NCBI RefSeq assembly: GCF_026000115.1
Contig: NZ_AP026867.1
Coordinates: 2,969,716-3,033,715 of the forward strand
DNA from: Aureispira anguillae
Lineage (GTDB): Bacteria; Bacteroidota; Bacteroidia; Chitinophagales; Saprospiraceae
Length of the DNA stretch: 64,000 bases
Direction of reading: 5' to 3'
Of this stretch, positions 29,421 to 41,906 are shown in pieces (positions within the stretch are counted from its first letter, which is position 1; the number at the start of each line of letters is the position of its first letter). The translations under genes were made by a program, and so were the position numbers. The notes beneath the pieces are model-generated. The model was not told the origin of the DNA. It did not search any database and was given only the letters and a program-made list of their open reading frames with translations.

Positions 29421-30590
29421 TTACGATTGTACCACACCACAATAAACGCTACCATAGGTGCCTACTCGATCTTGAAGGTGTTGTGCTTTTGTAACTTGAT
29501 CATCAAAATTGACCTTTCTTCTTACAAAATCAGGAAAGAAATCTATTTTTACTGCTCCTGATCGTAGTAGTATTTTAGTGCCAGGTCGGCTATTTTTGAG
29601 GATTAAATCCCACTCCTCTTCCAAGGCAGGGACATCGTTGGCAGCCAACCAGTCTTGATGATCCAACAAGACAAAATGACTGTATGAATTAGGATTGTCT
29701 TTGAGAAATTGTGAAATGGTGGTTGTATGGGTCTGTATTTTTTCCTGTTCTTTTTTTAGGGTATCAAAGTGTTCTTTTTTCAGATAATTAGGGCAGCATT
29801 CTGGAGTATATTTTCCATTGATATAAAGCTGCCAAAAATAATTATCACGAATTGGTAATTTGGTAAAAATATAGCGCAATGAATCTTGAATAAAACGAAT
29901 CACACCACCAATATATTCCTCCTCTACCAACTTAGATTGGGATCTTGGTATACCCAATAAACTTAGCGTAACAGGCTGTTTCATTGCCCATTGAATAAAA
30001 TTCCCAATGATCTTTTTTTCAATGATATTGTACCAATAAGTCTGAATTTCTAAGGTAGGAGCATTCAACAACTGTTGAACATTGGAGTACAAGGATTTTC
30101 GCAGGCGCATATAATAACCAAACAACCAAGCAAAAGTCCCCGCTGTACCATAAAAATAAAAACTGGGACGAAAACGATTAGCACCAAAGTAAGGTTCTAC
30201 TTTTTTGTCCCAAAATTTTTGAGCAAAATCAGGCAAATGCTCCCTTAGATAGCGCTCATAACAATAGATTGGCGTTTCGTGCTTCCCCTCTCCAAAAAAT
30301 TGAAACAACTGGCTGTGGGCATCTATCTTGTAAAAGGCTTTTTTTAGTTCTAACAACGAATTTTGGCGGTAATTGACATCTACACAGTGAATTGCAGCAG
30401 GTTTATCCAGCGCATAGTCCAAGGCATTGCAACCCGCACTTGTAATCATAACCAGTTCACTGGCTTCGTCAATTTCAAGTAATGCTCGATCACATTTGGG
30501 ATCTTCCCAACAAGTGTTGTAAATTAGATTATTACCATGGATTTTGCCAAACATCCAATCTTTTGCCTTATTTGTAGCAGCTTGAATCAT
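29421..30590 (-). CDS. DUF3419 / BtaA-like S-adenosylmethionine:diacylglycerol 3-amino-3-carboxypropyltransferase
   Basis: 389 aa. N-terminal pattern …NTCWEDP…DRALLEIDEASELVMITSAGCNALDY… is characteristic of the BtaA (DUF3419) family. Confidence 0.6.
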   Translation of the reverse strand: MIQAATNKAKDWMFGKIHGNNLIYNTCWEDPKCDRALLEIDEASELVMITSAGCNALDYALDKPAAIHCVDVNYRQNSLLELKKAFYKIDAHSQLFQFFGEGKHETPIYCYERYLREHLPDFAQKFWDKKVEPYFGANRFRPSFYFYGTAGTFAWLFGYYMRLRKSLYSNVQQLLNAPTLEIQTYWYNIIEKKIIGNFIQWAMKQPVTLSLLGIPRSQSKLVEEEYIGGVIRFIQDSLRYIFTKLPIRDNYFWQLYINGKYTPECCPNYLKKEHFDTLKKEQEKIQTHTTTISQFLKDNPNSYSHFVLLDHQDWLAANDVPALEEEWDLILKNSRPGTKILLRSGAVKIDFFPDFVRRKVNFDDQVTKAQHLQDRVGTYGSVYCGVVQS

Positions 30591-30752
30591 ACTTATTTTT
30601 GTTGTAATTAAATAAAGTATTTTACGTTGCTACAAATAAACAGCATTTGGCTCAAACCCTAACCAATATAAAGTTTAAGGATATAAAAAATCCTTTTAAT
30701 CATTTATTTACAAAGCCATCTAAAAATTAAGCTTTTGTAAAATCGCCTCTTT

Positions 30753-31802
30753 TTAATCTTTTAACTGCTGCATAATTTCTGTACAAGTTTTCTGTTTGTC
30801 CTTGGCATTTGTAATTAAACCAGAAGCTGCAATTCCCCAAACACCTGTGCTTAAAATTGCCTTAATATCAGATGGATTAATTCCTCCAATAGCCAATACA
30901 GGAATATCTATTTCTTGTGCTTTCATTTGGTCGATAATTCTAGTATAACCGTCTATTCCCAAAACAGGGCTTATTTTTTTCTTTGTTGTTGTATACCGAA
31001 AAGGCCCCAAGCCAATATAATCCACTTGCTCCTTAGACAGTCGTTGTACATCTTCCCAAGTATTGGCTGTTCCACCAATTATTATATCTCCTACTATTTT
31101 CCTAGCTTCTAACGGAGACATATCTTCCTTGCCTAGATGCAATCCATCTGCTTGGACAGCCTTGGCAACAGCTGCATTGTCATTGATGGTTAACTTAACC
31201 TGATAGTTTTGGCAAATTGTTTTGGCAGCCATAGCCGTATCCAAGTACTCTTGAAAGGTTACTTCCTTCATCCTTAACTGCACCCATTTACAACCTGCTT
31301 GGCAGGCTTCTTTAATCGCTTCTAAATGCGTTAATCCTACCTTAGATTGAGAAACATAATGCAATCGTGGAATCTCTTTTTTTATCATTGTCAATTCTTT
31401 TTTTAGGACTTGAACATAGTCCTCCATAAATCGGTATTCTTTGGTTTTTAATCGTTTTCTAATCGCAGAAATAGGAAAGCTAATAATGCCAGAAGCTTGA
31501 TGTTTTACGGCTATATCTTTCCCTTGATAATCCTTATAAGCAATCCATTCAAAGCCCAGTTGGTCTACTAAATATTGTCCCAAAGCATAGCCCAACCCTG
31601 TTGCTATCATAAATTTACGAGGACGTTTCCACCAAGTCGTTTGCATTGCATTTTCAAAGGCATCATCCAATAAGGAAATCGTCAAAGTAGCAATTTCCTT
31701 CCCACTGTATTTTTCAATTAGCCCCTCTCCCAATTCCAGCGCATCTTTTTTCCAAGCCAATTCCTTTTTGTTTAATGTTTTTTCTTCGTATTGCCCCATC
31801 AA
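30753..31802 (-). CDS. thiE: Thiamine-phosphate synthase (ThiE domain) with ~140-aa N-terminal extension
   Basis: The C-terminal ~200 aa carry ThiE motifs (…ADGLHLGKEDM…IIGGTANTWEDV…DYIGLGPFRYTTTKK…IPVLAIGGI). The N-terminal 140 aa are unassigned. Confidence 0.6.
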   Translation of the reverse strand: MMGQYEEKTLNKKELAWKKDALELGEGLIEKYSGKEIATLTISLLDDAFENAMQTTWWKRPRKFMIATGLGYALGQYLVDQLGFEWIAYKDYQGKDIAVKHQASGIISFPISAIRKRLKTKEYRFMEDYVQVLKKELTMIKKEIPRLHYVSQSKVGLTHLEAIKEACQAGCKWVQLRMKEVTFQEYLDTAMAAKTICQNYQVKLTINDNAAVAKAVQADGLHLGKEDMSPLEARKIVGDIIIGGTANTWEDVQRLSKEQVDYIGLGPFRYTTTKKKISPVLGIDGYTRIIDQMKAQEIDIPVLAIGGINPSDIKAILSTGVWGIAASGLITNAKDKQKTCTEIMQQLKD

Positions 31803-31808
31803 TTTATA

Positions 31809-32579
31809 CTACTTATGTTTATAATGATACCCCAATAAAGTGTTATTAGAATTTAAAAATGCCGTGATATAACTTTTGGCCTGTTGGCAAGCTTCTAATA
31901 AATCATAACCCAAGGCTAGGTTTGCTACAATTGCCGCAGAGAGCACACAACCAGAGCCATGTTTCTCATAATATACTTTTTGTTGAGGCGCTAAGGTATG
32001 TATTGTATTATCTTCTAATAAAAAATCCGTTCCTTTTTGCACCTCGTTATGCCCGCCTTTGTATAACACATTGCAGTAATCCGCTAAGGCTTTGGCAACA
32101 GCCATTAGAGCTTGTCCCTCTGTTCCTATCTTTTTCAATTCTTGTGCATTGGGAGTCAGTAAATAAACATTCGAAAGCCATTGTTTTAATGTTTCTAAGC
32201 TTACTTCTTCATGGAAATTAAATCCTGCGCTTGCTCTAAAAATCGGATCGACAACAATCTTTAAAGAAGGATTTAACCTTAGCAAATGTTTGGTGATAGC
32301 CGCTAAAACTTCCCAATTTTGAATCAAACCTATTTTACAAAAATGAATGGGGTATTCTTGAAACAATATGCTTATTTGTGCCTTTATCAAGTCTTGATCG
32401 ACCCAGTCTACCCGCCTAAAAACAGACTCATGCTGAACCGTTATGGCAGTAGCAACTGTCAGCCCATAAACCCCCTGCGCTTCCATTGTTTTGGCATCTG
32501 CAACCAAACCTGCACCACCACTAGGGTCAAAGCCTGCAATGCTCAACGCATAGGGTCTATTGCTTGTATTTTTTTGCAT
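31809..32579 (-). CDS. thiD: Hydroxymethylpyrimidine / phosphomethylpyrimidine kinase
   Basis: ThiD motifs: ALSIAGFDPSGGAGLVADAKT near the N-terminus and the C-terminal GSGC. Start taken at internal Met. Confidence 0.8.
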   Translation of the reverse strand: MQKNTSNRPYALSIAGFDPSGGAGLVADAKTMEAQGVYGLTVATAITVQHESVFRRVDWVDQDLIKAQISILFQEYPIHFCKIGLIQNWEVLAAITKHLLRLNPSLKIVVDPIFRASAGFNFHEEVSLETLKQWLSNVYLLTPNAQELKKIGTEGQALMAVAKALADYCNVLYKGGHNEVQKGTDFLLEDNTIHTLAPQQKVYYEKHGSGCVLSAAIVANLALGYDLLEACQQAKSYITAFLNSNNTLLGYHYKHK

Positions 32580-33166
32580 AATTTCTGGTAATTTTCTAGT
32601 GCTGAAGCCTTGCCATTCCACACTGCCCCCAAAAAAGCAACCGCTTTGAACCCACGCTCATAAGCAGCTGCTAAAGTTCTCGCATTAACTCCTCCCAAAG
32701 CGATCAATTGGAACGGGAAAGACAAATCATGTATGCTCCAATTTTCTGTTGGTTGATAATTGGGTTTAGAAATACTTGGAAAAACAGGGCTCAACGTCAC
32801 ATAATCCAATTGCTTTGGTAAGGTTAAAAGATCTATTCTTTGGTGAATTGCTGTGCCTATTATTCGGTCTTTAGCATGACACGTTTCTATTAGTTGTTTT
32901 AATGCCTCAGAAGATAGCGCTCTACGAGCAGACTCTGTTAAGTGTACCCCCAATAAATTAAATTCTTCGACCAGTTCTAAATGCTGATGAAGGATAATTC
33001 TAGCATAAAATTTAGCATTAATTTTTTTTAGTAAGTCAACACAATCTGCCTTAGTTGCCATTGGTTTTCTAAGATGCAAGCAAGGTAAACCATTTTCAAA
33101 TAAATGATTCAGGATAAGTGCTTCTTCTTGAAAAAAAATAGGCGTTGAGTACAATCTATGCTCCAT
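32543..33166 (-). CDS. ThiE/TenI-family protein (second thiamine-phosphate synthase or thiazole tautomerase)
   Basis: 207-aa TIM-barrel ThiE/TenI-like pattern (…LHLRKP…HLELVEEFNLLGVHLTE…IALGGV…). It is clearly distinct from the ThiE domain at 30753-31802. Confidence 0.5.
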   Translation of the reverse strand: MEHRLYSTPIFFQEEALILNHLFENGLPCLHLRKPMATKADCVDLLKKINAKFYARIILHQHLELVEEFNLLGVHLTESARRALSSEALKQLIETCHAKDRIIGTAIHQRIDLLTLPKQLDYVTLSPVFPSISKPNYQPTENWSIHDLSFPFQLIALGGVNARTLAAAYERGFKAVAFLGAVWNGKASALENYQKLCKKIQAIDPMR

Positions 33167-33180
33167 ATTTTAGCGTAAAT

Positions 33181-33993
33181 TTAAATGACACCTAAGTCGC
33201 CCAAAACTTTACCAACAATGGTCTTTCTACACATCATAAAATCATTGTCTTTGATAGCTCCCACTGCCGCTTCTATATTATTAACAAAAACAAAACGCTC
33301 TCCATCAGGACGTTCTATATACCCCACAAACCAGCCAATATTTCTATTGCCATCAATCGCCCAACCCGTCTTGCCTCTCATAACCATTCCAGAAGAATCA
33401 GAAGCAATCACCATAATGTCCCTCATTTTTTGCTGAGTAGAGGGCTTGATCGGTAACTCATTATTTGCCAACCGCTCTATAAAATCAAGCTGTTGATAGG
33501 GCGTTACCGTAGATTTCCCTTTCAACCAAAAATCAGAAATGGTTTCTTTTCTAATGTCCATTTTGCCAAACTGCAATTTATTAACCCATTCTTGCATCCG
33601 TAAAGGTCCTATACGCCTAGCAATCTCTTGATAATAAGGTACACAAGAAACCTTAAAAGCCGTTTTCATAGTATGATCCTGATTCCAAACTGCAATTTGA
33701 CGAACAACAGAGTCCCATTTAATTAACATATTTTCGTCTGTTGCAACCCCTGTCTCTAAAGCAGTTATAGAATTGACAATTTTAAAAGTAGATGCAGGCA
33801 AGAAGCCCTGTAAACAACGGTTCGAATTGTAAACATACAGCTGTTTACTATTTAATGATTTTAACAAAAAACAACCTTCCACAGCATATTCTTTGTACAA
33901 AGCATCCAAGTCTAACTTGGCAGATTCATTCGTTTCGGTACAACTAACACAGATACAAATGAACGGAATTAATAACAATAAAAATGGTTTCAT
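33181..33993 (-). CDS. Class D (OXA-type) beta-lactamase
   Basis: Lipoprotein-type signal (MKPFLLLLIPFICICVSC). Active-site S-T-F-K tetrad (PASTFKIVNSI), KTG (GKTGWA) and W-x-x-G (GWFVGY) motifs. Length ~270 aa. No TM or metalloprotease region, so it is not BlaR1. Confidence 0.7.
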   Translation of the reverse strand: MKPFLLLLIPFICICVSCTETNESAKLDLDALYKEYAVEGCFLLKSLNSKQLYVYNSNRCLQGFLPASTFKIVNSITALETGVATDENMLIKWDSVVRQIAVWNQDHTMKTAFKVSCVPYYQEIARRIGPLRMQEWVNKLQFGKMDIRKETISDFWLKGKSTVTPYQQLDFIERLANNELPIKPSTQQKMRDIMVIASDSSGMVMRGKTGWAIDGNRNIGWFVGYIERPDGERFVFVNNIEAAVGAIKDNDFMMCRKTIVGKVLGDLGVI

Positions 33994-34241
33994 AATTTGA
34001 ATTTTAAATAACTCTAGCAATAAAAATTACACCTTTGTTAGGTTAGACTTCTCCTTCAATTAATTCCCTCTCCTTTGCCACCAAAATAAACAATTGCTCA
34101 ATTAATTTATATCATTCTACCCAATAGTTCATTGATTTTTTGTTTTTTTGCTGACCAAATACAAAGTAAACGAACAATAAGACCATGAAATAAAAATATT
34201 AAAATCGTTTCTCCCAATCGTCCCAATATCAACCAAGTAAT

Positions 34242-35213
34242 ATGATGCAGCACAAAAAGAAGTTTTTATTTATTCTAGCGGTCGCTCTTTTTTTCTTTTT
34301 GGAAGCTTGCCAGAAAGAATATTCCTTTGACCCGAAGTACTTTCCTGAACAACTTTCTGATACAGATATTTTCAGTGGAAATATCGCTAATTTAACCCCT
34401 TCCCCCAACTATCATTTGTATGAATTATCTTCTGGGCTTTTTTCTGATTATTCGGAAAAACAACGATTAATTAAACTGCCTACAGGCACTCAATTGACCC
34501 AAACAGGTTATGCCCTGCCTGATTTCCCCGATGGCACTACTCTTGTCAAGACGTTTTATTATTGGAATGACGAAAGAGACACTACTCAAGGAAAAAAGAT
34601 TGTTGAAACAAGGCTTTTAGTCCTAAATGAAGGAGAATGGCAAACGGCCGTCTATCAATGGAATACGGCTCAAACCGAAGCCTATTTATTAAGTAGTGGC
34701 GCTAATTTACCTATCCATTGGATCAATAAAAAAGGAGAGCCACAAATAACAACCTACCATATTCCCAATTTACAGGAGTGCCTTACTTGCCATCAAGTAG
34801 ATGAACAAATGGAACCCACTGGTTTTAAACTGCACAATTTAAATAGACTGGTCAAAAAAGGAGGACAAAACGTTAACCAATTGGCTTATTTCCAAACAAT
34901 TAATTTAATCAACCAGTTTGATTGGAATAATTTAGAAAAATTACCCAGTTACAAGGATCATAGCCTGCCTGATGCCGAAAGAAGTCGGGCTTATATGGAT
35001 ATTAATTGCGCTCATTGTCATTCTCCTGCGGGTATGATGGGGGACATGGATTTAGACTTAAGATACTATACTCCTATTGAACATACAGGAATTCTTAGCC
35101 GCAAGGACAAAATGCTCGACCAAATGGCATCGGGGTATATGCCACTGATAGGAACAAGCCTAGTAGACCAAGAATACATCGATCAAACCATTCAATATTT
35201 AAATAGTTTATAA
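34242..35213 (+). CDS. Putative di-haem c-type cytochrome lipoprotein
   Basis: Lipoprotein signal (…FFFLEACQ). Two CxxCH motifs: CLTCHQ and CAHCHSP. Confidence 0.45.
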   Translation: MMQHKKKFLFILAVALFFFLEACQKEYSFDPKYFPEQLSDTDIFSGNIANLTPSPNYHLYELSSGLFSDYSEKQRLIKLPTGTQLTQTGYALPDFPDGTTLVKTFYYWNDERDTTQGKKIVETRLLVLNEGEWQTAVYQWNTAQTEAYLLSSGANLPIHWINKKGEPQITTYHIPNLQECLTCHQVDEQMEPTGFKLHNLNRLVKKGGQNVNQLAYFQTINLINQFDWNNLEKLPSYKDHSLPDAERSRAYMDINCAHCHSPAGMMGDMDLDLRYYTPIEHTGILSRKDKMLDQMASGYMPLIGTSLVDQEYIDQTIQYLNSL

Positions 35214-35214
35214 C

Positions 35215-35943
35215 ATGAGATATTTAGTTTTAATCGTTATCCTCTTGTACACTGTTTATCAAGGGCAAGCACAAGAAACAGCTACCTTAAATAGCAAATG
35301 GTCTTTGGAAGCGCTATTTTCTCCTAATTTTTCTTATCGGATATTGACCAATTCGGGCAGCGAGAAATGGCTAAAAGAAGAACGAGAACGCACAGAAATT
35401 GGTCGTTTAGGTTATAGTGCCAGATTTATGATCAACTATCATTTGCACGAGCGCTGGCACCTTGGATTTGGCGCAGCTTATTCTAGTATTGGTTACAATA
35501 CTCGCCCAACCTCCATTGCGTGGAACGCTTCTATTAATAATGCTCCCACAACGCTACGAATGTCAAACCGTTATTCTTATGTAGGGATTTATCTCTTAGG
35601 GAATTACCAACTGATTCAACACAAAAGATGGGGTGGTTATCTAACTTTTGGTGCGATTATGAATACTTATTTAGATAAAAATTTATTGACCGAAATCCAA
35701 ACCAATGGTCAATGGACCAGTAGCGATAACTGGGGATTTGAATACGATCGACACAGTCTATTTGTCCTTGCAGGTATTGGTGGAAGCTATCGGTTGATTC
35801 AAGGCTTGCACTTAGTGGTTAATCTTAATTTTTCTCAGGCGCTAATGCCCAACAGCAGTAGTTCGAGAACTCAGGAGTTTTTGAATTCCTTGAATTTGGA
35901 CTTGGGGCTTAATTATCGATTTCAAGGTAAAAAAAAGGAATAA
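35215..35943 (+). CDS. Outer-membrane beta-barrel protein (OmpW/porin-like small barrel)
   Basis: Signal peptide and alternating beta-strand pattern. Immediately follows the cytochrome-like gene with a 1-nt gap. Confidence 0.45.
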   Translation: MRYLVLIVILLYTVYQGQAQETATLNSKWSLEALFSPNFSYRILTNSGSEKWLKEERERTEIGRLGYSARFMINYHLHERWHLGFGAAYSSIGYNTRPTSIAWNASINNAPTTLRMSNRYSYVGIYLLGNYQLIQHKRWGGYLTFGAIMNTYLDKNLLTEIQTNGQWTSSDNWGFEYDRHSLFVLAGIGGSYRLIQGLHLVVNLNFSQALMPNSSSSRTQEFLNSLNLDLGLNYRFQGKKKE

Positions 35944-36172: not shown

Positions 36173-37519
36173 CTAAGATAAAACAAGCTGCCCTTGATTA
36201 GGATTGATTAATTTACCTGCTGACCAAACCCTTACTCCATTTACAAAAGTATGTTTAACAAGCCCCTGTAATTGTCTACCTTCATAAGGCGAAACTTTGT
36301 GTTTTGCTTCAATTTTTTGCCGAGTAATGGTGTCCCATTCTTCAGGATTCCAAACGACTAAATCAGCATCATAACCCAGCTTAATTTTTCCTTTTTGCTG
36401 CTCCAAACCAATAAATTGGGCAGGTGCTTCGCAAAGAATTGTACGAATCCGCTCCAACGTCAGACCATGCGCTTGTCCCTTGGTCCACAAAGCAGGCAAA
36501 GTAAACTGAATACCAGAGATTCCCCCCCATGCTTTTTGGTAATTTCCAGTATCTAATTCTTTGATACGTGGCGGTGCTGGAGAGTGATCTGAACCTATAA
36601 AATCAAGCGTTCCATCCATCAAAGCTTCCCATAACAAAACATTGTTTGCTTGTTCTCGAATGGGTGGTGCACATTTATAACGAGTATCTCCATTGGGAAT
36701 GGTTTCTGCATCAAAGAAAATATAATGGGGACAAGTTTCTACGGTTACAGGCACCCCCCGTTTTTTTGCTGCTCGGATGGCTGGCAAACTATCGGAAGAA
36801 GACAAATGGACAATATGAGTAGAATGTTGGTATTCTTCAGCCAATTGCAACATCAATGCAACCGCATCATTTTCCCATTTTCGAGGTCTTGATGCCAAAT
36901 AGGCTAGATAATTTGTTGGGTTTTGGGTCAATTGGGCATCAAAAGCCCCTGAAGCCAATTCACAATGCACCAAAATTGGTAAATTAGTTCCTTTTAAGGC
37001 CTCATAAGCCGCTCGCAAAGTGGCTTCATCAGCATTGGGGAATTCGTCAATGCCACTATGGGTCAAAAATGCCTTAAAGCCCAATACACCTCGTTTTGCT
37101 AAAGGGGCTAAACTGGTCGTATTTCCAGGAATAATTCCTCCCCAAAAGCCACTATTTACGTGTAATTTACCTTTTGTAGCAGCCAATTTATGATCTAATT
37201 CTTTTACATTAACCGTAACAGGAGAAGAATTTAGTGGCATATCAACCAAAGTAGTTACTCCCCCAGCAGCAGCAGCAGTTGTCCCTGTGTAAAAGCCCTC
37301 CCATTCTGTCCGCCCAGGCTCATTGATGTGTACATGAGGGTCTATAATTCCAGGCATCAACACCTCATTTTCAAAATTATAAAAAGGAATAGATGCCGTA
37401 GTCTTGATACAACCTTTCTGAATTTTTTCAATCTTACCTTGATTGATCCAGATGGTGTATTCTCCAATGGTATCGGGCAACATGACCCGCTTACTATAAA
37501 TGATTAGTTGCTCGTTCAT
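36173..37519 (-). CDS. allB: Allantoinase (cyclic amidohydrolase)
   Basis: Metal-dependent amidohydrolase motifs (PGIIDPHVHINEPG, carbamylated-Lys region, HxH). 448 aa. Allantoinase is favoured over dihydroorotase or dihydropyrimidinase because it is adjacent to xdh and puuD. Confidence 0.65.
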   Translation of the reverse strand: MNEQLIIYSKRVMLPDTIGEYTIWINQGKIEKIQKGCIKTTASIPFYNFENEVLMPGIIDPHVHINEPGRTEWEGFYTGTTAAAAGGVTTLVDMPLNSSPVTVNVKELDHKLAATKGKLHVNSGFWGGIIPGNTTSLAPLAKRGVLGFKAFLTHSGIDEFPNADEATLRAAYEALKGTNLPILVHCELASGAFDAQLTQNPTNYLAYLASRPRKWENDAVALMLQLAEEYQHSTHIVHLSSSDSLPAIRAAKKRGVPVTVETCPHYIFFDAETIPNGDTRYKCAPPIREQANNVLLWEALMDGTLDFIGSDHSPAPPRIKELDTGNYQKAWGGISGIQFTLPALWTKGQAHGLTLERIRTILCEAPAQFIGLEQQKGKIKLGYDADLVVWNPEEWDTITRQKIEAKHKVSPYEGRQLQGLVKHTFVNGVRVWSAGKLINPNQGQLVLS

Positions 37520-37523
37520 TTGC

Positions 37524-38945
37524 TTAATCTTCTAATTTAGCCCCTTGCATAATCCAAGTCTCAATTTTGGTTCGTTCCTCCATGGTCATTTTTGTTTTAT
37601 TTCCCTGAGGCATTGTTTTCGTGATCACAGCACGATTCATTATTTTATCTTTACTGGCAACAATTTGTTCGGGGGTATCAAACATCATCCCACCTTGCGC
37701 CACAATAAAGACATCATCTGTTGGTGTTTTGGAATGGCAGGGTCTACAACGCTGCCCAATTATTGCCTCCACTTCTGTAAAAGGAACTTTGTCGGCATTT
37801 GCCAATTCTTCTCTAGATTTGGGAGCCGTTAAATAAATGGTGAGCACGAGTAGCACAAGGCTAATGGGCACAATCCACCGATTGAGTTCTCCCCTTTCCC
37901 ATTGATTATGAAAATGCTTGATGCCTGCTCCTGCCAAAGAAATTAGTAACAAAATTAAGACACTGTGCTCGTTCCCAAACGTGCTTGGGAAATGATTGCT
38001 AATCATAATAAAAAGCACTGGTAAGGTAAAATAATTGTTGTGATAAGAACGCCATCCTGCTCGTTTACCCAACTCCCCATTAGGCGCTCTCCCTTCCTTA
38101 GCGGCAAATACCATTTCTTTTTGAGCAGGTATAATTACAAAAAATACATTTCCTGCCATCATGGTTCCCATAATAGCTCCCATGTGAATATAAGCTGCCC
38201 TAGGATTAAATACAATGGACAAACAATAGGCTACCGCTAATAAATAAAGCACCATGATCAAAAAGAAAATAGGGCGTTTTTCTGGTGCCAATAAAGAGGT
38301 TTGAGACAACAGTTCATAAAAAACCCACGAAAATACAATCGATGATACGCCTATCATTACCCCCAAAACGGGAGAAAGCTGTGTTATTTCAGGGTTTAAC
38401 AGAAATGATTCTGCATTAAAATAATAAACGATTGTCAGCAGACAAGTCCCTGTTAACCAAGTAAAATAAGCTTCATATTTGAACCAATGTAAGTGTTTAG
38501 GAATTTGTTTGGGGGCGATTTTATATTTTTCCAAAAAATAAAATCCTCCACCATGAATTGCCCAAAGATTCCCAGCCAATTCATCTCGAATTTCTTCTGT
38601 TCGATTTAAGGAATTTTCTAAAAAGACAAAATAGAAAGAAGCTCCCACCCAAGAAATACCAAAAATAATATGCAACCAACGGAAAATTAGATCCAACCAC
38701 TCTTGCAAATGCGCCTGCCAAGGGGTTCCTGCTACTTGGTTATAAATAATATAGGCTCCTGAAAAAAAGGCGGCAATAAAAAACAACCATTTCCTAAAGA
38801 AGCGCATATTGGCGGCAAAATCTTTATCTTTTTCATTCTGACGGTTAGGGTCTTCTGCATATTGTTGTACCAATTTCTGGATCACTACGGTTCCCGAAAG
38901 GCAAATACAAACAACAATCCCTATCATCGTTTCCACTACTCCCAT
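37524..38945 (-). CDS. puuD: Membrane-bound urate hydroxylase PuuD-like (multi-TM domain plus C-terminal cytochrome c)
   Basis: About 9 TM helices followed by a soluble C-terminal domain with CRPCHS (CxxCH). This architecture and the gene neighbourhood match the PuuD urate oxidase family. Confidence 0.65.
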   Translation of the reverse strand: MGVVETMIGIVVCICLSGTVVIQKLVQQYAEDPNRQNEKDKDFAANMRFFRKWLFFIAAFFSGAYIIYNQVAGTPWQAHLQEWLDLIFRWLHIIFGISWVGASFYFVFLENSLNRTEEIRDELAGNLWAIHGGGFYFLEKYKIAPKQIPKHLHWFKYEAYFTWLTGTCLLTIVYYFNAESFLLNPEITQLSPVLGVMIGVSSIVFSWVFYELLSQTSLLAPEKRPIFFLIMVLYLLAVAYCLSIVFNPRAAYIHMGAIMGTMMAGNVFFVIIPAQKEMVFAAKEGRAPNGELGKRAGWRSYHNNYFTLPVLFIMISNHFPSTFGNEHSVLILLLISLAGAGIKHFHNQWERGELNRWIVPISLVLLVLTIYLTAPKSREELANADKVPFTEVEAIIGQRCRPCHSKTPTDDVFIVAQGGMMFDTPEQIVASKDKIMNRAVITKTMPQGNKTKMTMEERTKIETWIMQGAKLED

Positions 38946-39077
38946 AATCTTATATACTTATCGTTTTATTTTGTGTTTTAATTCCTTTCATCGCTACCCT
39001 AAAAAGGAATTTTAGCTTCAAAGAAGCGAGTAAGATAGTAGAAAAAAATCAATTTTTCTAACAAAATTCTGAGTACA

Positions 39078-39133
39078 GAACAAAATTAGTAGGTTAAAAA
39101 TTACTCGCAATGCTCGTGAGATCAGTTAACTGT
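39078..39133. repeat. Partial, inverted copy of the MITE-like element at 19917-20160
   Basis: acaaaattagtaggttaaaaatt (matches 19929-19951) is fused to ttactcgcaatgctcgtgagatcagttaactgtgctg, which is the reverse complement of 20088-20125 (cagcacagctaactgatctcacgagcactgcgagtaa) with 2 mismatches. Confidence 0.55.
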
Positions 39134-39151
39134 GCTGCTGCCTTATAATAC

Positions 39152-39625
39152 CTAGCGATTAAGCTGCTGCCTCAAAAAATTCACAACCTGCCGTCTATGT
39201 CTTAAAATATGAACAATAGCATGTTCCATCAATTGTTCAAAATCATAAGTCACCCCCCATCTTGTTTCAAATTTCCACACTTCGATTGCTTCATTAGACT
39301 TATAATAAATATCCTTAAAAACTAGCTCGGTATAGTCCAACATCGCATCAATTTCTACCATTCCCTCTTCAGGATCTTCTATTTTTTGGTCGTATTCCAA
39401 CCATTTGTCAGAACGAATAGACTGAATGTAATTCGCATAGGTATACCCCGACTGCACGATATGGAAGGTAAGACTTTGTATTGACCGACAATCCACATCC
39501 TTTGTTTCTTTGTCTACCACCTCAACAAACTGAGGCAGCGACAAACCACTTAATATTTCTTTGTATTCAAGCGCCGCTTTCTGATATTCATCCATTAGCG
39601 CTACCAACATTCCATTTTTTTTCAT
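39152..39625 (-). CDS. DinB/YfiT-like metal-dependent hydrolase-fold protein
   Basis: About 160 aa, four-helix-bundle DinB_2-like pattern with conserved His residues near the C-terminus (HAIVHILRHRRQ). Confidence 0.45.
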   Translation of the reverse strand: MKKNGMLVALMDEYQKAALEYKEILSGLSLPQFVEVVDKETKDVDCRSIQSLTFHIVQSGYTYANYIQSIRSDKWLEYDQKIEDPEEGMVEIDAMLDYTELVFKDIYYKSNEAIEVWKFETRWGVTYDFEQLMEHAIVHILRHRRQVVNFLRQQLNR

Positions 39626-39641
39626 CGTAAAAATTAAGGTT

Positions 39642-41906
39642 CTATTGTTCAAAGGAATCATACAAAGCCATCAAGACCCGTTCATGTGTCATGGGTGTAC
39701 TTAATAATCCTTTTGCATTGGGGTTAAACGCCTTAATGGCATCCGTAATGGCAAAATGCGCCCCAATTCCGTACATTAAAGGTGGTTCTCCAACTGCTTT
39801 TGATTTTAGAATTGCCAAATTAGAATGGTTGGTTTCTAAAAATTTAACATTAATTACTTTAGGAACTGAAAATACATCTGGCACCTTGTAAGTAGATAAA
39901 GCAGAAGACAATAAACGCCCCTCTTGATTGTAGCTCAATTCTTCCATGGTCACCCAACCCATCCCTTGAACCAAACCACCTTCTATTTGTCCTTTATCGA
40001 TCATTTTATTCATGCTCTGCCCAAAATCATGTACAATATCCACTCGATCAAATTCATAAATTCCTCGAATACAATCTACCGTTACTTCTGTAATTGCAGT
40101 ACCGTAAACATGATAAGCAAAAGGATGTCCCTTTTCTGTTGTTTTGTCAAACTTAACTCTAGGCGTTGCATAATGTCCCTTCTCTGACAACTGTATACGA
40201 GCGACAAAGGCATTGGTCACCAATTGTTGCCAAGACCAATCTGTCTTTTGACCATCAATATAGACCCATTCATCGTGAAGGCTGATCGTTTCAAGCTGTT
40301 CTAACTTAAATTGCTGTTGAACAAAAGTTTTTAATCGCAACAAAATAGCAGAACAAGCAATTTGGAGTGCCTTACCATTTAAATCTGCCCCTGCACTTGC
40401 TGCTGTAGGTGATGTATTGGCAACACGAGTGGTATTCGTAGTTTCAATTTTTATTCTTTCAGGTGCTATGGCAAAAGTTTGCGCTACAATCTGAAGCATT
40501 TTAGTATTTACGCCCTGTCCCATTTCCACCGCTCCAGTACTTACTCCAACACTTCCATCTTGATAAACATGAACCAAAGCACGAGCATGATTCATAGGGG
40601 TATTGGTAAAGGAAATACCAAAACAAATTGGCATAACAGCCAGTCCTTTTTTGAGCGTTGTATGTTGAGCATTAAAAGCCGTAACACGGTCACGCATTCC
40701 CTGAAGATCAAAATCAGCGGCTGCTTGTTCCCATGTTTTTAGTGCCTCACAATTTTCTACAATTTGCCCATAGGAAAATTCATCTCCATCTTGTAATAAA
40801 TTTGCCTTTTGAATCAGGGCTCTATCTACTCCTATTTGCTCCGCAGCTAGTGTAATTGCCGCTTCCATAACAAATTTTCCTTGGGGGCCTCCAAAACCTC
40901 GAAAAGCAGTATTGGGAGGCAAATTAGTTCGACAGCTTCTAGCTGTCAACCGAGCATTGGGTACAAAATAAGCATTGGTAGCATGAAACAAGGTGCGCTC
41001 CAATACCGCAGGCGACAAATCTGCTGCAGCTCCTGCATTTTGATAAAAATCGGCTTCATAAGCAATAATTTTAAGTTGCTCGTCCAAACCAATTTTAAAA
41101 TCAGAAGTATAGGGGTGTCGTTTGCCTGTCATGCGCAGATCTTCTTCCCTATCCAATATCAATTTAACGGGCTTTTTGCTCAAAAACGCCCCCAAAGCAG
41201 CCAAAACCGCAAAGGGAGTTGCTTGATCTTCCTTTCCTCCAAATCCACCACCTAAACGCCGAACATCTACTTCTATTTTGTGCATCGCCAAGCCCAAAAC
41301 CCTAGCAATTCCCCGTTGAACCTGTGTTGGTCCTTGCGTAGAAGAAACCACCCTGATGCAATCATTTTCAACAGGAAAAGCATACGCCCCCTGTCCCTCT
41401 ATATATAAATGTTCTTGACCATTGCAATCCGCTCTTCCTTCCACAATATGAGCACATTGCTCCCAAGCCTTATCTACTTCACCAATTTTGAAGGTTCTAA
41501 CAGGGCCAATAAGTTCCCCCTTTTCTGCTGCCTCCCTAGGATCTACAATAACAGGTAATTCCGAGGCTTCCATCACAATTGCCTTTATGGCTTCATGCGC
41601 TATTTTTTTAGAAGTCGCCAAGACCAAAGCAATCGGTTGTCCTCTAAAATGTATGTCCCCGTCAGACAAAGCAGGTTCATCAGGGAAAATTCCTCCAATT
41701 TGATTTTCTCCAGGAATATCCTTATGCGTAATAATATGTTTTACTCCAGCTATTGCTTTAGCTTTGGTTAAATCTAATTTTGTAATTTTTCCATGTGCCA
41801 ATGGAGCATCAAAAATTGCGGCGAACAATGTCCCCCCTAAAATTGGCAAATCATCCACATAAATGGATTCGCCACGAGTATGTGTATAAGAATCTATATT
41901 TTTCAT
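39642..41906 (-). CDS. xdhB: Xanthine dehydrogenase molybdopterin-binding subunit
   Basis: 754 aa. Aldehyde oxidase / xanthine dehydrogenase a/b-hammerhead and Moco-binding motifs (…GGGFGGKE…, …RGFGGPQG…, …AVGEPP…). Confidence 0.85.
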   Translation of the reverse strand: MKNIDSYTHTRGESIYVDDLPILGGTLFAAIFDAPLAHGKITKLDLTKAKAIAGVKHIITHKDIPGENQIGGIFPDEPALSDGDIHFRGQPIALVLATSKKIAHEAIKAIVMEASELPVIVDPREAAEKGELIGPVRTFKIGEVDKAWEQCAHIVEGRADCNGQEHLYIEGQGAYAFPVENDCIRVVSSTQGPTQVQRGIARVLGLAMHKIEVDVRRLGGGFGGKEDQATPFAVLAALGAFLSKKPVKLILDREEDLRMTGKRHPYTSDFKIGLDEQLKIIAYEADFYQNAGAAADLSPAVLERTLFHATNAYFVPNARLTARSCRTNLPPNTAFRGFGGPQGKFVMEAAITLAAEQIGVDRALIQKANLLQDGDEFSYGQIVENCEALKTWEQAAADFDLQGMRDRVTAFNAQHTTLKKGLAVMPICFGISFTNTPMNHARALVHVYQDGSVGVSTGAVEMGQGVNTKMLQIVAQTFAIAPERIKIETTNTTRVANTSPTAASAGADLNGKALQIACSAILLRLKTFVQQQFKLEQLETISLHDEWVYIDGQKTDWSWQQLVTNAFVARIQLSEKGHYATPRVKFDKTTEKGHPFAYHVYGTAITEVTVDCIRGIYEFDRVDIVHDFGQSMNKMIDKGQIEGGLVQGMGWVTMEELSYNQEGRLLSSALSTYKVPDVFSVPKVINVKFLETNHSNLAILKSKAVGEPPLMYGIGAHFAITDAIKAFNPNAKGLLSTPMTHERVLMALYDSFEQ

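What the first reader, a model, noticed from the sequence alone, without database searches (positions are those of the whole stretch)
33181..33993. Stand-alone class D (OXA-like) beta-lactamase gene abutting the thiamine genes
The ORF has a lipoprotein-type signal peptide and the diagnostic class D elements: the S-T-F-K active-site tetrad, a KTG triad and a W-x-x-G motif, in a ~270-aa protein with no BlaR1-type membrane or metalloprotease region. It lies 14 bp upstream of, and co-directional with, the ThiE/TenI-ThiD-ThiE genes. This suggests co-transcription of a resistance enzyme with cofactor-biosynthesis genes. Chromosomal OXA-type enzymes from environmental Bacteroidota are a known reservoir, but individual members are mostly uncharacterised.
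Basis: partly seen in the sequence, partly recalled or inferred. Interest (0 to 1): 0.55.

Follow-up and report, generated by a model that had tools for sequence, protein, structure and literature searches.

The report
Chromosomal class D beta-lactamase gene in Aureispira
The ORF is an ordinary, chromosomally encoded OXA-type (class D) beta-lactamase homologue of the marine bacterium Aureispira anguillae, and its position just upstream of three thiamine genes is a genus-level quirk of gene order with no evident functional link.

Summary
A 270-aa ORF on the minus strand (33181..33993) encodes a single-domain class D beta-lactamase homologue. It has every active-site element: STFK, SCV, the omega-loop Trp, KTG, WxxG and the Arg250 equivalent. 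It also has a signal peptide ending in a conserved Cys. It lies 14 bp upstream of tenI-like, thiD and thiE.

The best sequence and fold matches are all class D enzymes: Nostoc and Chitinophaga structures at 39% identity, OXA-48 at 33-36%. BlaR1 sensors reach only 21-22%. The identical protein is already public (Aureispira anguillae). NCBI gives it a generic name, consistent with the class D HMM scoring 249.4 bits against a cut-off of 250.

The bla-thi order recurs in five Aureispira lineages (gaps 10-155 bp). Three other Aureispira species have a symporter gene downstream instead. None of about 75 class D loci outside the genus has thi genes nearby. No TPP riboswitch, terminator, regulator or mobile element is present.

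Co-transcription is plausible but untested, and it looks incidental. The gene is a new, uncharacterised member of a well-known family. Hydrolytic activity is inferred, not shown. Low interest.

The parts
33181..33993 (-). Class D (OXA-like) beta-lactamase homologue, 270 aa plus stop
   Evidence: ORF. NF012161 at 249.4 bits, E = 2.8e-74. PDB class D hits. AF2 model at pLDDT 94.4, Foldseek TMt 0.91-0.94 to class D structures; identical to an Aureispira anguillae protein.
33940..33993 (-). Signal peptide (aa 1-17) plus Cys18, the putative lipidation site (V-S-C)
   Evidence: sequence. [G/A/S]-Cys conserved at this position in the 27 closest of 32 aligned homologues. N-terminal helix with low pLDDT, typical of a signal peptide.
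33781..33792 (-). Motif 1, S68-T-F-K71: the nucleophilic Ser and the Lys expected to be carboxylated (OXA-48 S70/K73)
   Evidence: read directly; invariant in the alignment; aligned to OXA-48 S70..K73. STFK in 119 of 120 homologues.
33640..33648 (-). Motif 2, S116-C-V118 (the SxV motif; OXA-48 S118-V-V120)
33562..33570 (-). F142-G-K144, at the position of the YGN/FGN motif; the third residue is Lys rather than Asn
   Evidence: G143 invariant. K or R at the third position in 73 of 120 homologues, N in 26 of 120.
33517..33531 (-). F155-W156-L-K-G159: the omega-loop Trp that stabilises the carboxy-lysine (OXA-48 W157)
   Evidence: F155, W156, L157 and G159 invariant.
33364..33372 (-). Motif 3, K208-T-G210
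   Evidence: invariant. KTG in 118 of 120 homologues.
33322..33333 (-). W221-F-V-G224 (the WxxG motif)
   Evidence: W221 and G224 invariant.
33226..33228 (-). R256, equivalent to OXA-48 R250 (the substrate carboxylate-binding Arg)
   Evidence: invariant; aligned to OXA-48 R250.
33994..34241 (.). 248-bp AT-rich (28% GC) spacer between bla and a divergent gene; the only sizeable non-coding stretch upstream of bla-tenI-thiD-thiE, so the likely promoter region
   Evidence: No consensus promoter could be assigned.
33167..33180 (-). 14-bp bla-tenI spacer with no terminator-like hairpin
32543..33166 (-). Divergent TMP-TENI family protein (TenI/ThiE-like, 207 aa)
   Evidence: PF02581 at 57 bits; all NCBIfam hits below their cut-offs.
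31809..32579 (-). ThiD (HMP/HMP-P kinase). The ATG start overlaps the tenI-like gene by 37 nt; the mechanical ORF extends to a GTG at 32621
30753..31802 (-). ThiE (thiamine-phosphate synthase) with an N-terminal DUF3806 domain
   Evidence: NF000736 at 246 bits, above its cut-off of 227. PF12713 plus PF02581.

Best explanation
This is the intrinsic, chromosomally encoded class D serine beta-lactamase of Aureispira anguillae (Bacteroidota, Saprospiraceae).

Export and location (inferred). The protein is exported by its signal peptide. It is probably lipidated at Cys18 and anchored to a membrane facing the periplasm.

Mechanism (inferred from the family). Lys71 is N-carboxylated in a hydrophobic pocket formed by Val118, Trp156 and Leu157. 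It acts as the general base that activates Ser68 for acylation by the beta-lactam ring, and then activates water for deacylation. Ser116, Lys208-Thr-Gly and Arg256 hold the substrate.

Expression and context (inferred). The gene sits in native, non-mobile chromosomal context. It is most likely transcribed from the 248-bp spacer upstream. Transcription probably reads through the 14-bp gap into tenI-like, thiD and thiE. That linkage is an accident of gene order in one Aureispira subclade and not a functional coupling.

Shown here: family, fold, motif conservation, gene context and its phylogenetic distribution. Inferred: hydrolytic activity, substrate spectrum, lipidation and co-transcription.
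For: Family:
- NF012161 class D main model scores 249.4 bits, E = 2.8e-74, and all 25 listed NCBIfam hits are class D families.
- The 60 best PDB sequence hits are all beta-lactamases, E = 1e-41 to 1e-53.
- The AF2 model (pLDDT 94.4) superposes on class D structures 6NHS, 7K3M, OXA-232, OXA-48 and FUS-1 with TMt 0.91-0.94 and rmsd 1.4-2.0.

Active site:
- S68, K71, S116, G143, F155, W156, L157, K208, T209, G210, W221, G224 and R256 are invariant across 32 homologues down to 39% identity.
- These residues align with OXA-48 S70, K73, S118, W157, KTG and R250.
- STFK occurs in 119 of 120 best homologues and KTG in 118 of 120, all 213-335 aa long.
- In a published survey, 7 of 10 randomly chosen environmental class D homologues with intact motifs showed beta-lactamase activity in crude extracts (PMC9045261, read).

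Not a sensor:
- BlaR1 reaches only 21-22% identity and 73-77 bits.

Native context:
- GC is 0.37 against 0.365 for the window.
- Flanking purine-catabolism, thi and DUF3419 genes are syntenic with other Aureispira genomes.
- No plasmid relative exceeds 40% identity.

Lipoprotein:
- [G/A/S]-Cys is conserved in the 27 closest of 32 aligned homologues.
- About 60% of OXA enzymes carry a lipobox (PMC11580949 abstract).

Incidental linkage:
- bla-thi order occurs in 5 Aureispira lineages, with gaps of 14, 49, 155, 14 and 10 bp.
- bla is followed by a symporter gene in 3 other Aureispira species.
- None of about 75 non-Aureispira loci has thi genes within 5 kb.
Against: - No enzymatic or phenotypic data exist for this protein or this genus in the literature I could reach.
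- Conserved motifs are not sufficient for activity; YbxI and BAC-1 are pseudo-DBLs (PMC9045261).
- The score is 0.6 bit below NCBI's curated cut-off.
- The third residue of the YGN motif is Lys, not Asn. This is typical of the clade.
- Position -3 of the lipobox is Cys, outside the classical pattern as I recall it.
- No promoter could be located.
Confidence: 0.75

Rival explanations
1. Pseudo-DBL. The protein has the class D fold and motifs but only marginal beta-lactamase activity. Its physiological role would be something else, such as binding or slowly turning over a cell-wall-related or unknown acyl substrate, as proposed for Bacillus YbxI-type proteins.
For: - PMC9045261 states that conserved motifs do not warrant activity. 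In that study, 3 of 10 tested environmental homologues gave no active enzyme, and 3 more hydrolysed only nitrocefin.
- Among solved structures, the nearest are structural-genomics entries (6NHS 'YbxI from Nostoc', 7K3M, 8EP6). I am not aware of published kinetics for them.
- The score is just under the NCBI cut-off.
- The family is widespread in free-living Bacteroidota and cyanobacteria with no clinical selection.
Against: - Every catalytic and carboxy-lysine-stabilising residue is invariant under clear purifying selection over more than 60% sequence divergence.
- Export signal and fold are intact.
- Most tested environmental homologues with intact motifs were active.
Confidence: 0.2
2. Functional coupling with thiamine metabolism. 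The enzyme would be the first gene of a dedicated bla-tenI-thiD-thiE operon. It would act on a thiamine-related or antivitamin compound, or its expression would be deliberately tied to thiamine synthesis.
For: - The gap is 14 bp with no terminator.
- The four-gene order is kept in five Aureispira lineages.
- No TPP riboswitch or other obvious thi-specific control element lies in front of the thi genes.
Against: - The adjacency is confined to one subclade of one genus.
- Three other Aureispira species pair the orthologue with a Na+/sulfate-family symporter at about 30 bp.
- None of about 75 other class D loci has thi genes within 5 kb.
- In L005 the bla-tenI gap is 155 bp while bla sits 24 bp behind an allantoinase-like gene. 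Tight spacing is therefore a general feature of this gene string.
- The active site is a standard beta-lactam-binding one.
Confidence: 0.04
3. A BlaR1/MecR1-type sensor remnant or a low-molecular-weight penicillin-binding protein, not a hydrolase.
For: Pfam assigns only the generic PF00905 transpeptidase domain, and NCBI names the protein 'penicillin-binding transpeptidase domain-containing protein'.
Against: - BlaR1 sensors reach 21-22% identity and 73-77 bits, against 33-39% and up to 179 bits for OXA enzymes.
- There is no membrane or zinc-protease domain, and the protein is only 270 aa.
- Motif 2 is S-x-V, not S-x-(polar) (PMC9045261).
- The top 60 PDB hits are all beta-lactamases.
- No adjacent blaI- or blaZ-like genes are present.
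Confidence: 0.01

Closest known systems
Class D beta-lactamases annotated in other Aureispira genomes (e.g. P0010, 'MULTISPECIES: class D beta-lactamase [unclassified Aureispira]')
   Same: 72% identity over the full length, the same 270-aa architecture and the same bla-tenI-thiD-thiE order.
   Different: The gap to tenI is 49 bp rather than 14 bp. There bla directly follows an allantoinase-like gene, whereas in this window two opposite-strand genes are inserted. None of these proteins has been characterised biochemically, as far as I could find.
Structural-genomics class D enzymes from Nostoc (PDB 6NHS) and Chitinophaga pinensis Cpin_0907 (PDB 7K3M, 8EP6)
   Same: Best sequence matches (E = 1e-51 to 1e-53) and best fold matches (39% identity, TMt 0.93-0.94, rmsd 1.4-1.5). 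STFK, SxV, the omega-loop Trp and KTG are shared.
   Different: They carry YGN or FGN where this protein has FGK. They come from different phyla or families. About 60% of the sequence differs.
OXA-48 family carbapenem-hydrolysing class D beta-lactamases
   Same: 33-36% identity. All catalytic residues align (S70, K73, S118, V120, W157, K208-T-G, R250). Fold TMt is 0.91-0.94.
   Different: NF000387 scores 158.6 bits against a cut-off of 580, so this is not a family member. OXA-48 is plasmid-borne in Enterobacterales with a Shewanella origin (the origin is from my own knowledge). This gene is native and chromosomal in Aureispira. The substrate spectrum cannot be predicted.
OXA-1089 (OXAVL02) and RAD-1 (Riemerella anatipestifer), characterised environmental or Bacteroidota class D enzymes
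   Same: They are the best named-subfamily matches in NCBIfam, at 186.9 and 179.4 bits. Both are experimentally active class D enzymes (PMC9045261; PMC10068417 abstract).
   Different: The scores are far below the family cut-offs of 580 and 570, so this protein represents a separate, unnamed lineage.
BlaR1/MecR1 beta-lactam sensor-transducers
   Same: The C-terminal sensor domain shares the class D fold and the SxxK and KTG motifs.
   Different: Only 21-22% identity. BlaR proteins are longer than 550 aa, carry an N-terminal membrane and zinc-protease domain, and have a polar third residue in motif 2 (PMC9045261). None of these features is present here.

Membership tests
Class D (OXA-type) serine beta-lactamase / DBL-homologue | Motif 1 S-x-x-K (nucleophilic Ser70, Lys73) | tested here: met
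   S68-T-F-K71. Invariant in the alignment. Aligned to OXA-48 S70-K73.
Class D (OXA-type) serine beta-lactamase / DBL-homologue | Motif 2 S-x-V, with a hydrophobic third residue | tested here: met
   S116-C-V118. SCV is the commonest form among the 120 homologues.
Class D (OXA-type) serine beta-lactamase / DBL-homologue | Motif 3 K-T/S-G | tested here: met
   K208-T-G210, invariant.
Class D (OXA-type) serine beta-lactamase / DBL-homologue | Omega-loop Trp that stabilises the carboxylated Lys (OXA-10 W154 / OXA-48 W157) | tested here: met
   W156 in F-W-L-K-G, invariant. Aligned to OXA-48 W157.
Class D (OXA-type) serine beta-lactamase / DBL-homologue | Y/F-G-N motif (positions 144-146) | tested here: inconclusive
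   The protein has F142-G143-K144. The aromatic residue and Gly are kept, but Asn is replaced by Lys. Among the 120 best homologues, K or R is commoner than N at this position (73 versus 26), so this is a clade trait. Its functional consequence is unknown.
Class D (OXA-type) serine beta-lactamase / DBL-homologue | Curated HMM score (NCBIfam NF012161 bla_class_D_main, cut-off 250 bits) | tested here: inconclusive
   249.4 bits, E = 2.8e-74, covering 234 of 236 profile positions. This is 0.6 bit short of the annotation cut-off. The cut-off is an annotation threshold and does not define the family biologically.
Class D (OXA-type) serine beta-lactamase / DBL-homologue | Class D fold | tested here: met
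   AF2 pLDDT 94.4. Foldseek top 50 are all class D beta-lactamases, TMt 0.90-0.94.
Class D (OXA-type) serine beta-lactamase / DBL-homologue | Stand-alone secreted protein of about 250-350 aa | tested here: met
   270 aa, one domain, N-terminal signal peptide.
Class D (OXA-type) serine beta-lactamase / DBL-homologue | Bicarbonate-dependent hydrolysis of beta-lactams (carboxylated Lys) | not testable with these tools
   Requires purified protein and kinetics with and without NaHCO3.
Named OXA subfamilies (OXA-48, OXA-58, OXA-23, OXA-1089, RAD and others) | Subfamily HMM score above the curated cut-off | tested here: not met
   The best are OXA-1089-like at 186.9 against 580, RAD at 179.4 against 570, and OXA-48-like at 158.6 against 580. 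Identity to any plasmid-borne OXA is 39% or less.
BlaR1/MecR1 sensor-transducer | Length above 550 aa with an N-terminal membrane and zinc-protease domain | tested here: not met
   270-aa ORF. Upstream is a non-coding spacer and a divergent gene.
BlaR1/MecR1 sensor-transducer | Closest sequence similarity to BlaR sensor domains, with a polar third residue in motif 2 | tested here: not met
   21-22% identity and 73-77 bits to BlaR1, against up to 39% and 179 bits to OXA enzymes. Motif 2 ends in Val.
Bacterial lipoprotein (SPase II substrate) | Lipobox [LVI][ASTVI][GAS]-C at the end of the signal peptide | tested here: inconclusive
   The sequence is C-V-S-C18. Positions -1 and -2 fit the lipobox; position -3 (Cys) does not. 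The Cys with [G/A/S] at -1 is conserved in the 27 closest of 32 aligned homologues. No dedicated predictor was available.
Operon with thiamine genes (bla-tenI-thiD-thiE) | Same strand, short gaps, no intervening terminator or promoter region | tested here: met
   Gaps or overlaps are 14 bp, -37 bp and 6 bp. No terminator-like site lies at the junction.
Operon with thiamine genes (bla-tenI-thiD-thiE) | A single transcript spanning the junction | not testable with these tools
   Needs RT-PCR across 33150..33200, or RNA-seq.
Operon with thiamine genes (bla-tenI-thiD-thiE) | Gene association conserved beyond close relatives (functional linkage) | tested here: not met
   Present in 5 Aureispira lineages. 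Absent in 3 other Aureispira species and in all of about 75 other class D loci.

The most novel reading that the evidence does not exclude
In one Aureispira subclade the class D enzyme is the promoter-proximal gene of a riboswitch-less bla-tenI-thiD-thiE operon. This linkage would be selected, not accidental. Either the enzyme has a physiological substrate other than beta-lactams that is connected to thiamine or antivitamin chemistry, or thiamine-gene expression has become dependent on the beta-lactamase promoter.
Probability: 0.04. Interest if true: 0.6.

Novelty: new member of a known kind. Interest (0 to 1): 0.15.

Why it matters
It adds one more uncharacterised lineage to the already well-documented environmental reservoir of class D beta-lactamases (PMC9045261). 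This lineage shares less than 40% identity with any named OXA family.

The host, Aureispira anguillae, is described as a pathogen of hatchery-reared eel larvae. A study of such larvae used penicillin G during larval transport (PMC11230566). An intrinsic beta-lactamase could therefore have modest practical relevance for aquaculture.

The record also shows a small annotation artefact. The protein falls 0.6 bit under NCBI's class D cut-off and so carries a generic 'penicillin-binding' name, while 72%-identical orthologues are named class D beta-lactamase.

Nothing here changes the understanding of the family or of thiamine biosynthesis.

Tried and rejected
1. TPP riboswitch or any other Rfam family in front of bla or the thi genes. 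None was found in the whole window at gathering thresholds. None was found in 30000..35000 at E <= 5, apart from one chance IS009 hit. None was found in 8 related Aureispira loci.

2. Promoters. Sigma-70-like sites are no more frequent than in shuffled sequence (14 against 13.8), and none is convincingly placed. The Bacteroidota -7 motif TAnnTTTG (consensus recalled from memory) is not enriched in the window (103 against 96 expected). It has no minus-strand match between 32333 and 36243. No promoter could be assigned.

3. Terminators. Four terminator-like sites were found against 3.0 expected. None lies at the bla-tenI junction, and the two minus-strand sites are weak and inside coding sequence.

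4. Mobile origin. GC and GC3 match the neighbours. Flanking genes are syntenic with other Aureispira genomes. The best plasmid-borne relative is 39% identical. Horizontal acquisition and a direct progenitor role for any known mobile OXA are both rejected.

5. BlaR1 or PBP identity. Rejected.

6. Literature on beta-lactam susceptibility or beta-lactamases in Aureispira. Nothing relevant was found, and the species description (Arch Microbiol 2024) is not held in the library.

7. Active-site geometry (Lys71-Trp156 distance) in the AF2 model. The coordinates are not exposed to the scripting tool, so this was not done.
Full report
**1. Observation**

The ORF lies exactly at the stated coordinates, on the minus strand. 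It runs from an ATG at 33993 to a TAA at 33181..33183 and encodes 270 aa. A TTG nine codons upstream (34020) is the mechanical ORF start. The homologues and the public protein P0001 (100% identity and coverage) begin at the ATG.

The following motifs are read directly from the translation, and three of them (STFK, KTG, WFVG) were verified on the DNA:
- S68-T-F-K71
- S116-C-V118
- F142-G-K144
- F155-W-L-K-G159
- K208-T-G210
- W221-F-V-G224
- R256

The N-terminus, MKPFLLLLIPFICICVSC, is a signal peptide ending in V-S-Cys18. The next gene on the same strand starts at 33166, 14 bp after the stop.

Three thiamine-related genes follow on the same strand:
- a divergent TMP-TENI protein at 32543..33166 (PF02581, 57 bits; NCBIfam hits all below their cut-offs)
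- ThiD at 31809..32579, whose ATG overlaps the previous gene by 37 nt
- ThiE at 30753..31802 (NF000736 at 246 bits against a cut-off of 227), which carries an N-terminal DUF3806 domain

The one qualification concerns the lipobox. Its -3 residue is Cys, which the classical pattern (recalled from memory) does not allow.

**2. What the protein is**

Three independent lines of evidence place it in the class D family.
- *Profile matches.* NCBIfam's general class D model NF012161 matches end to end (profile positions 2-235 of 236) at 249.4 bits, E = 2.8e-74. All 25 listed hits are class D families. Pfam sees only the generic PF00905 transpeptidase domain.
- *Solved structures by sequence.* The 60 best PDB matches are all beta-lactamases. 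They are led by the class D structures from Nostoc (6NHS, E = 1e-53) and Chitinophaga pinensis (7K3M and 8EP6, E = 3e-51), followed by OXA-58, OXA-48-like, BSU-2/YbxI and OXA-23.
- *Fold.* An AlphaFold2 model built on 32 homologues is confident (mean pLDDT 94.4, pTM 0.87). Its 50 best Foldseek matches are all class D enzymes, with TMt 0.90-0.94 and rmsd 1.4-2.1.

Alignment with OXA-48 gives these equivalences: S68=S70, K71=K73, S116-x-V118=S118-x-V120, F142-G-K144=Y144-G-N146, W156=W157, KTG=KTG and R256=R250. The aligned ranges agree with the 3HBR match.

Across 32 homologues down to 39% identity these residues are invariant, apart from the first and third positions of the YGN motif and the near-invariant Val118. 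Among the 120 best database homologues, STFK occurs in 119 and KTG in 118. All are 213-335 aa long.

The third YGN position is K or R in 73 of 120 and N in only 26 of 120. FGK is therefore a clade trait, not a lesion.

**3.

BlaR1 genes on staphylococcal plasmids match at 20.7-22% identity and 73-77 bits. OXA enzymes match at 33-39% and 138-179 bits.

Lupo et al. (PMC9045261) separate BlaR homologues from class D homologues by three features:
- length above 550 aa
- an N-terminal peptidase domain
- a polar third residue in motif 2

None of these applies here. The call is not refuted.

**4. Source organism and public status**

The identical protein is on record for Aureispira anguillae, on a 7.58-Mb contig. 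NCBI names it 'penicillin-binding transpeptidase domain-containing protein'. This generic name fits the 0.6-bit shortfall against the curated cut-off of 250. Orthologues 72% identical in other Aureispira are named 'class D beta-lactamase'.

A. anguillae is described as a pathogen of Japanese eel leptocephali. A study of hatchery-reared eel larvae used penicillin G during larval transport (PMC11230566). I found no susceptibility data for the genus.

**5. Genomic context**

The gene is native to the chromosome.
- GC and GC3 match the neighbouring genes.
- The surrounding genes occur in the same order in other Aureispira genomes. Upstream are xanthine dehydrogenase, PuuD-type urate oxidase and an allantoinase-like amidohydrolase. 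Downstream are tenI-like, thiD, thiE, DUF3419 and a methyltransferase.
- No adjacent regulator, transposase or integron feature is present.
- The best plasmid-borne relative is 39% identical.

In A. anguillae, two opposite-strand genes lie between the allantoinase-like gene and bla. One is a CxxCH-containing cytochrome-c-like lipoprotein (34242..35213) and the other an outer-membrane beta-barrel protein (35215..35943). They were not found in any of the 84 related loci. Their presence leaves a 248-bp spacer of 28% GC (33994..34241). This is the only sizeable non-coding DNA upstream of the four-gene string.

**6. The bla-thi linkage**

I fetched 84 loci encoding relatives: 80 species-level genome loci plus 4 from exact look-ups. 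I searched each with the window's TenI-like, ThiD and ThiE proteins.

| Group | Loci | Gene downstream of bla | Gap |
|---|---|---|---|
| Aureispira, bla-thi order | window; L001-L003 (one protein); L005; L006; L009 | tenI-like, thiD, thiE | 14, 49, 155, 14 and 10 bp |
| Aureispira, 277-aa proteins, 62-65% identical | L004=L007; L008; L010 | Na+/sulfate-family symporter | about 30 bp |
| Outside the genus | about 75 loci | no thi gene within 5 kb | - |

In L005, bla is 24 bp behind the allantoinase-like gene and 155 bp ahead of tenI. In L001 the corresponding gaps are 85 and 49 bp. Close spacing is therefore a property of this whole co-directional gene string and not specific to bla-thi.

No TPP riboswitch or other Rfam element is present in the window or in eight related loci. 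No terminator-like hairpin lies at the junction. Neither sigma-70 nor Bacteroidota-type promoter motifs are informative.

My reading is as follows. In A. anguillae the thi genes are probably transcribed together with bla from the 248-bp spacer, or from an unrecognised promoter inside the 3' end of bla. This reflects lineage-specific gene order and not a functional partnership.

**7. Mechanism**

The fold and residues are shown; the chemistry is inferred from established knowledge of class D enzymes. Lys71 would be N-carboxylated and buried by Val118, Trp156 and Leu157. It would serve as the general base for acylation of Ser68 and for deacylation. Ser116, Lys208-Thr-Gly and Arg256 would position the substrate.

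Lipid anchoring via Cys18 is likely. A [G/A/S]-Cys is conserved in the 27 closest of 32 aligned homologues, whereas 5 of the most distant ones have Ala-Gln-type signal-peptidase I sites. Lipidated OXA enzymes are common (PMC11580949 abstract). The substrate spectrum cannot be predicted from sequence.

**8. Rival explanations**

The only serious rival is a 'pseudo-DBL' with marginal activity. PMC9045261 stresses that intact motifs do not guarantee activity. In that study, 7 of 10 environmental homologues showed some activity in crude extracts. Only 3 of them hydrolysed oxacillin. I give this rival about 0.2. Functional coupling to thiamine metabolism (0.04) and a sensor or PBP identity (0.01) are disfavoured by the comparative and similarity data above.

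**9. Novelty and verdict**

This is an uncharacterised member of a very well-known family. It belongs to a Bacteroidota lineage that is less than 40% identical to any named OXA family; subfamily HMM scores of 187 bits or less fall far short of cut-offs of 515 or more among the shown hits. The sequence is already public. The environmental class D reservoir is well documented (PMC9045261). The hint of meaningful co-regulation with cofactor genes is not. Interest is low (0.15).

Noticed in passing
window 30753..31802 (-): ThiE is fused to an N-terminal DUF3806 (PF12713) domain, giving 349 aa. The same two-domain architecture is called in other Aureispira genomes (L001-L003).
   Followed up: partly
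window 32543..33166 (-): The 'TenI/ThiE-like' protein is a very divergent TMP-TENI member (57 bits). All its NCBIfam hits are far below their cut-offs. The best is to the C-terminal domain of a Nudix-ThiE fusion model (PRK08999). It overlaps thiD by 37 nt. Its actual activity (ThiE paralogue, TenI tautomerase or something else) is open.
   Followed up: partly
whole window, and loci L001, L004-L010: No TPP riboswitch, and no Rfam family of any kind, reaches threshold in 64 kb that includes thiD and thiE, or in eight related Aureispira loci. These thi genes appear to lack the riboswitch control that, to my knowledge, is common for thiamine genes in Bacteroidota.
   Followed up: partly
window 34242..35943 (+): Two genes are inserted between the allantoinase-like gene and bla only in A. 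anguillae. One is a lipoprotein with two CxxCH haem-binding motifs and weak cytochrome c hits; the other is an OMP beta-barrel protein. No homologue was found in any of the 84 related loci.
   Followed up: partly
window 36173..41906 (-): A purine-catabolism gene string lies here: xanthine dehydrogenase molybdopterin subunit, a DinB-family protein, a PuuD-type (Urate_ox_N) urate oxidase and an allantoinase-like amidohydrolase. It is syntenic with other Aureispira, where an LRR protein also sits in the string.
   Followed up: no
window 33181..33993 (-), protein P0001: Annotation artefact. The protein scores 249.4 bits against a 250-bit cut-off for NCBIfam NF012161. NCBI calls it a 'penicillin-binding transpeptidase domain-containing protein', while 72%-identical orthologues are named class D beta-lactamase.
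   Followed up: yes
loci L004/L007, L008, L010: A second group of Aureispira class D proteins (277 aa, with a longer N-terminus) is followed at about 30 bp by a Na+/sulfate (DASS/CitMHS-type) symporter gene. A terpene synthase gene lies upstream in L004/L007 and L008. Whether these are orthologues in rearranged genomes or paralogues of the thi-linked gene was not resolved.
   Followed up: partly
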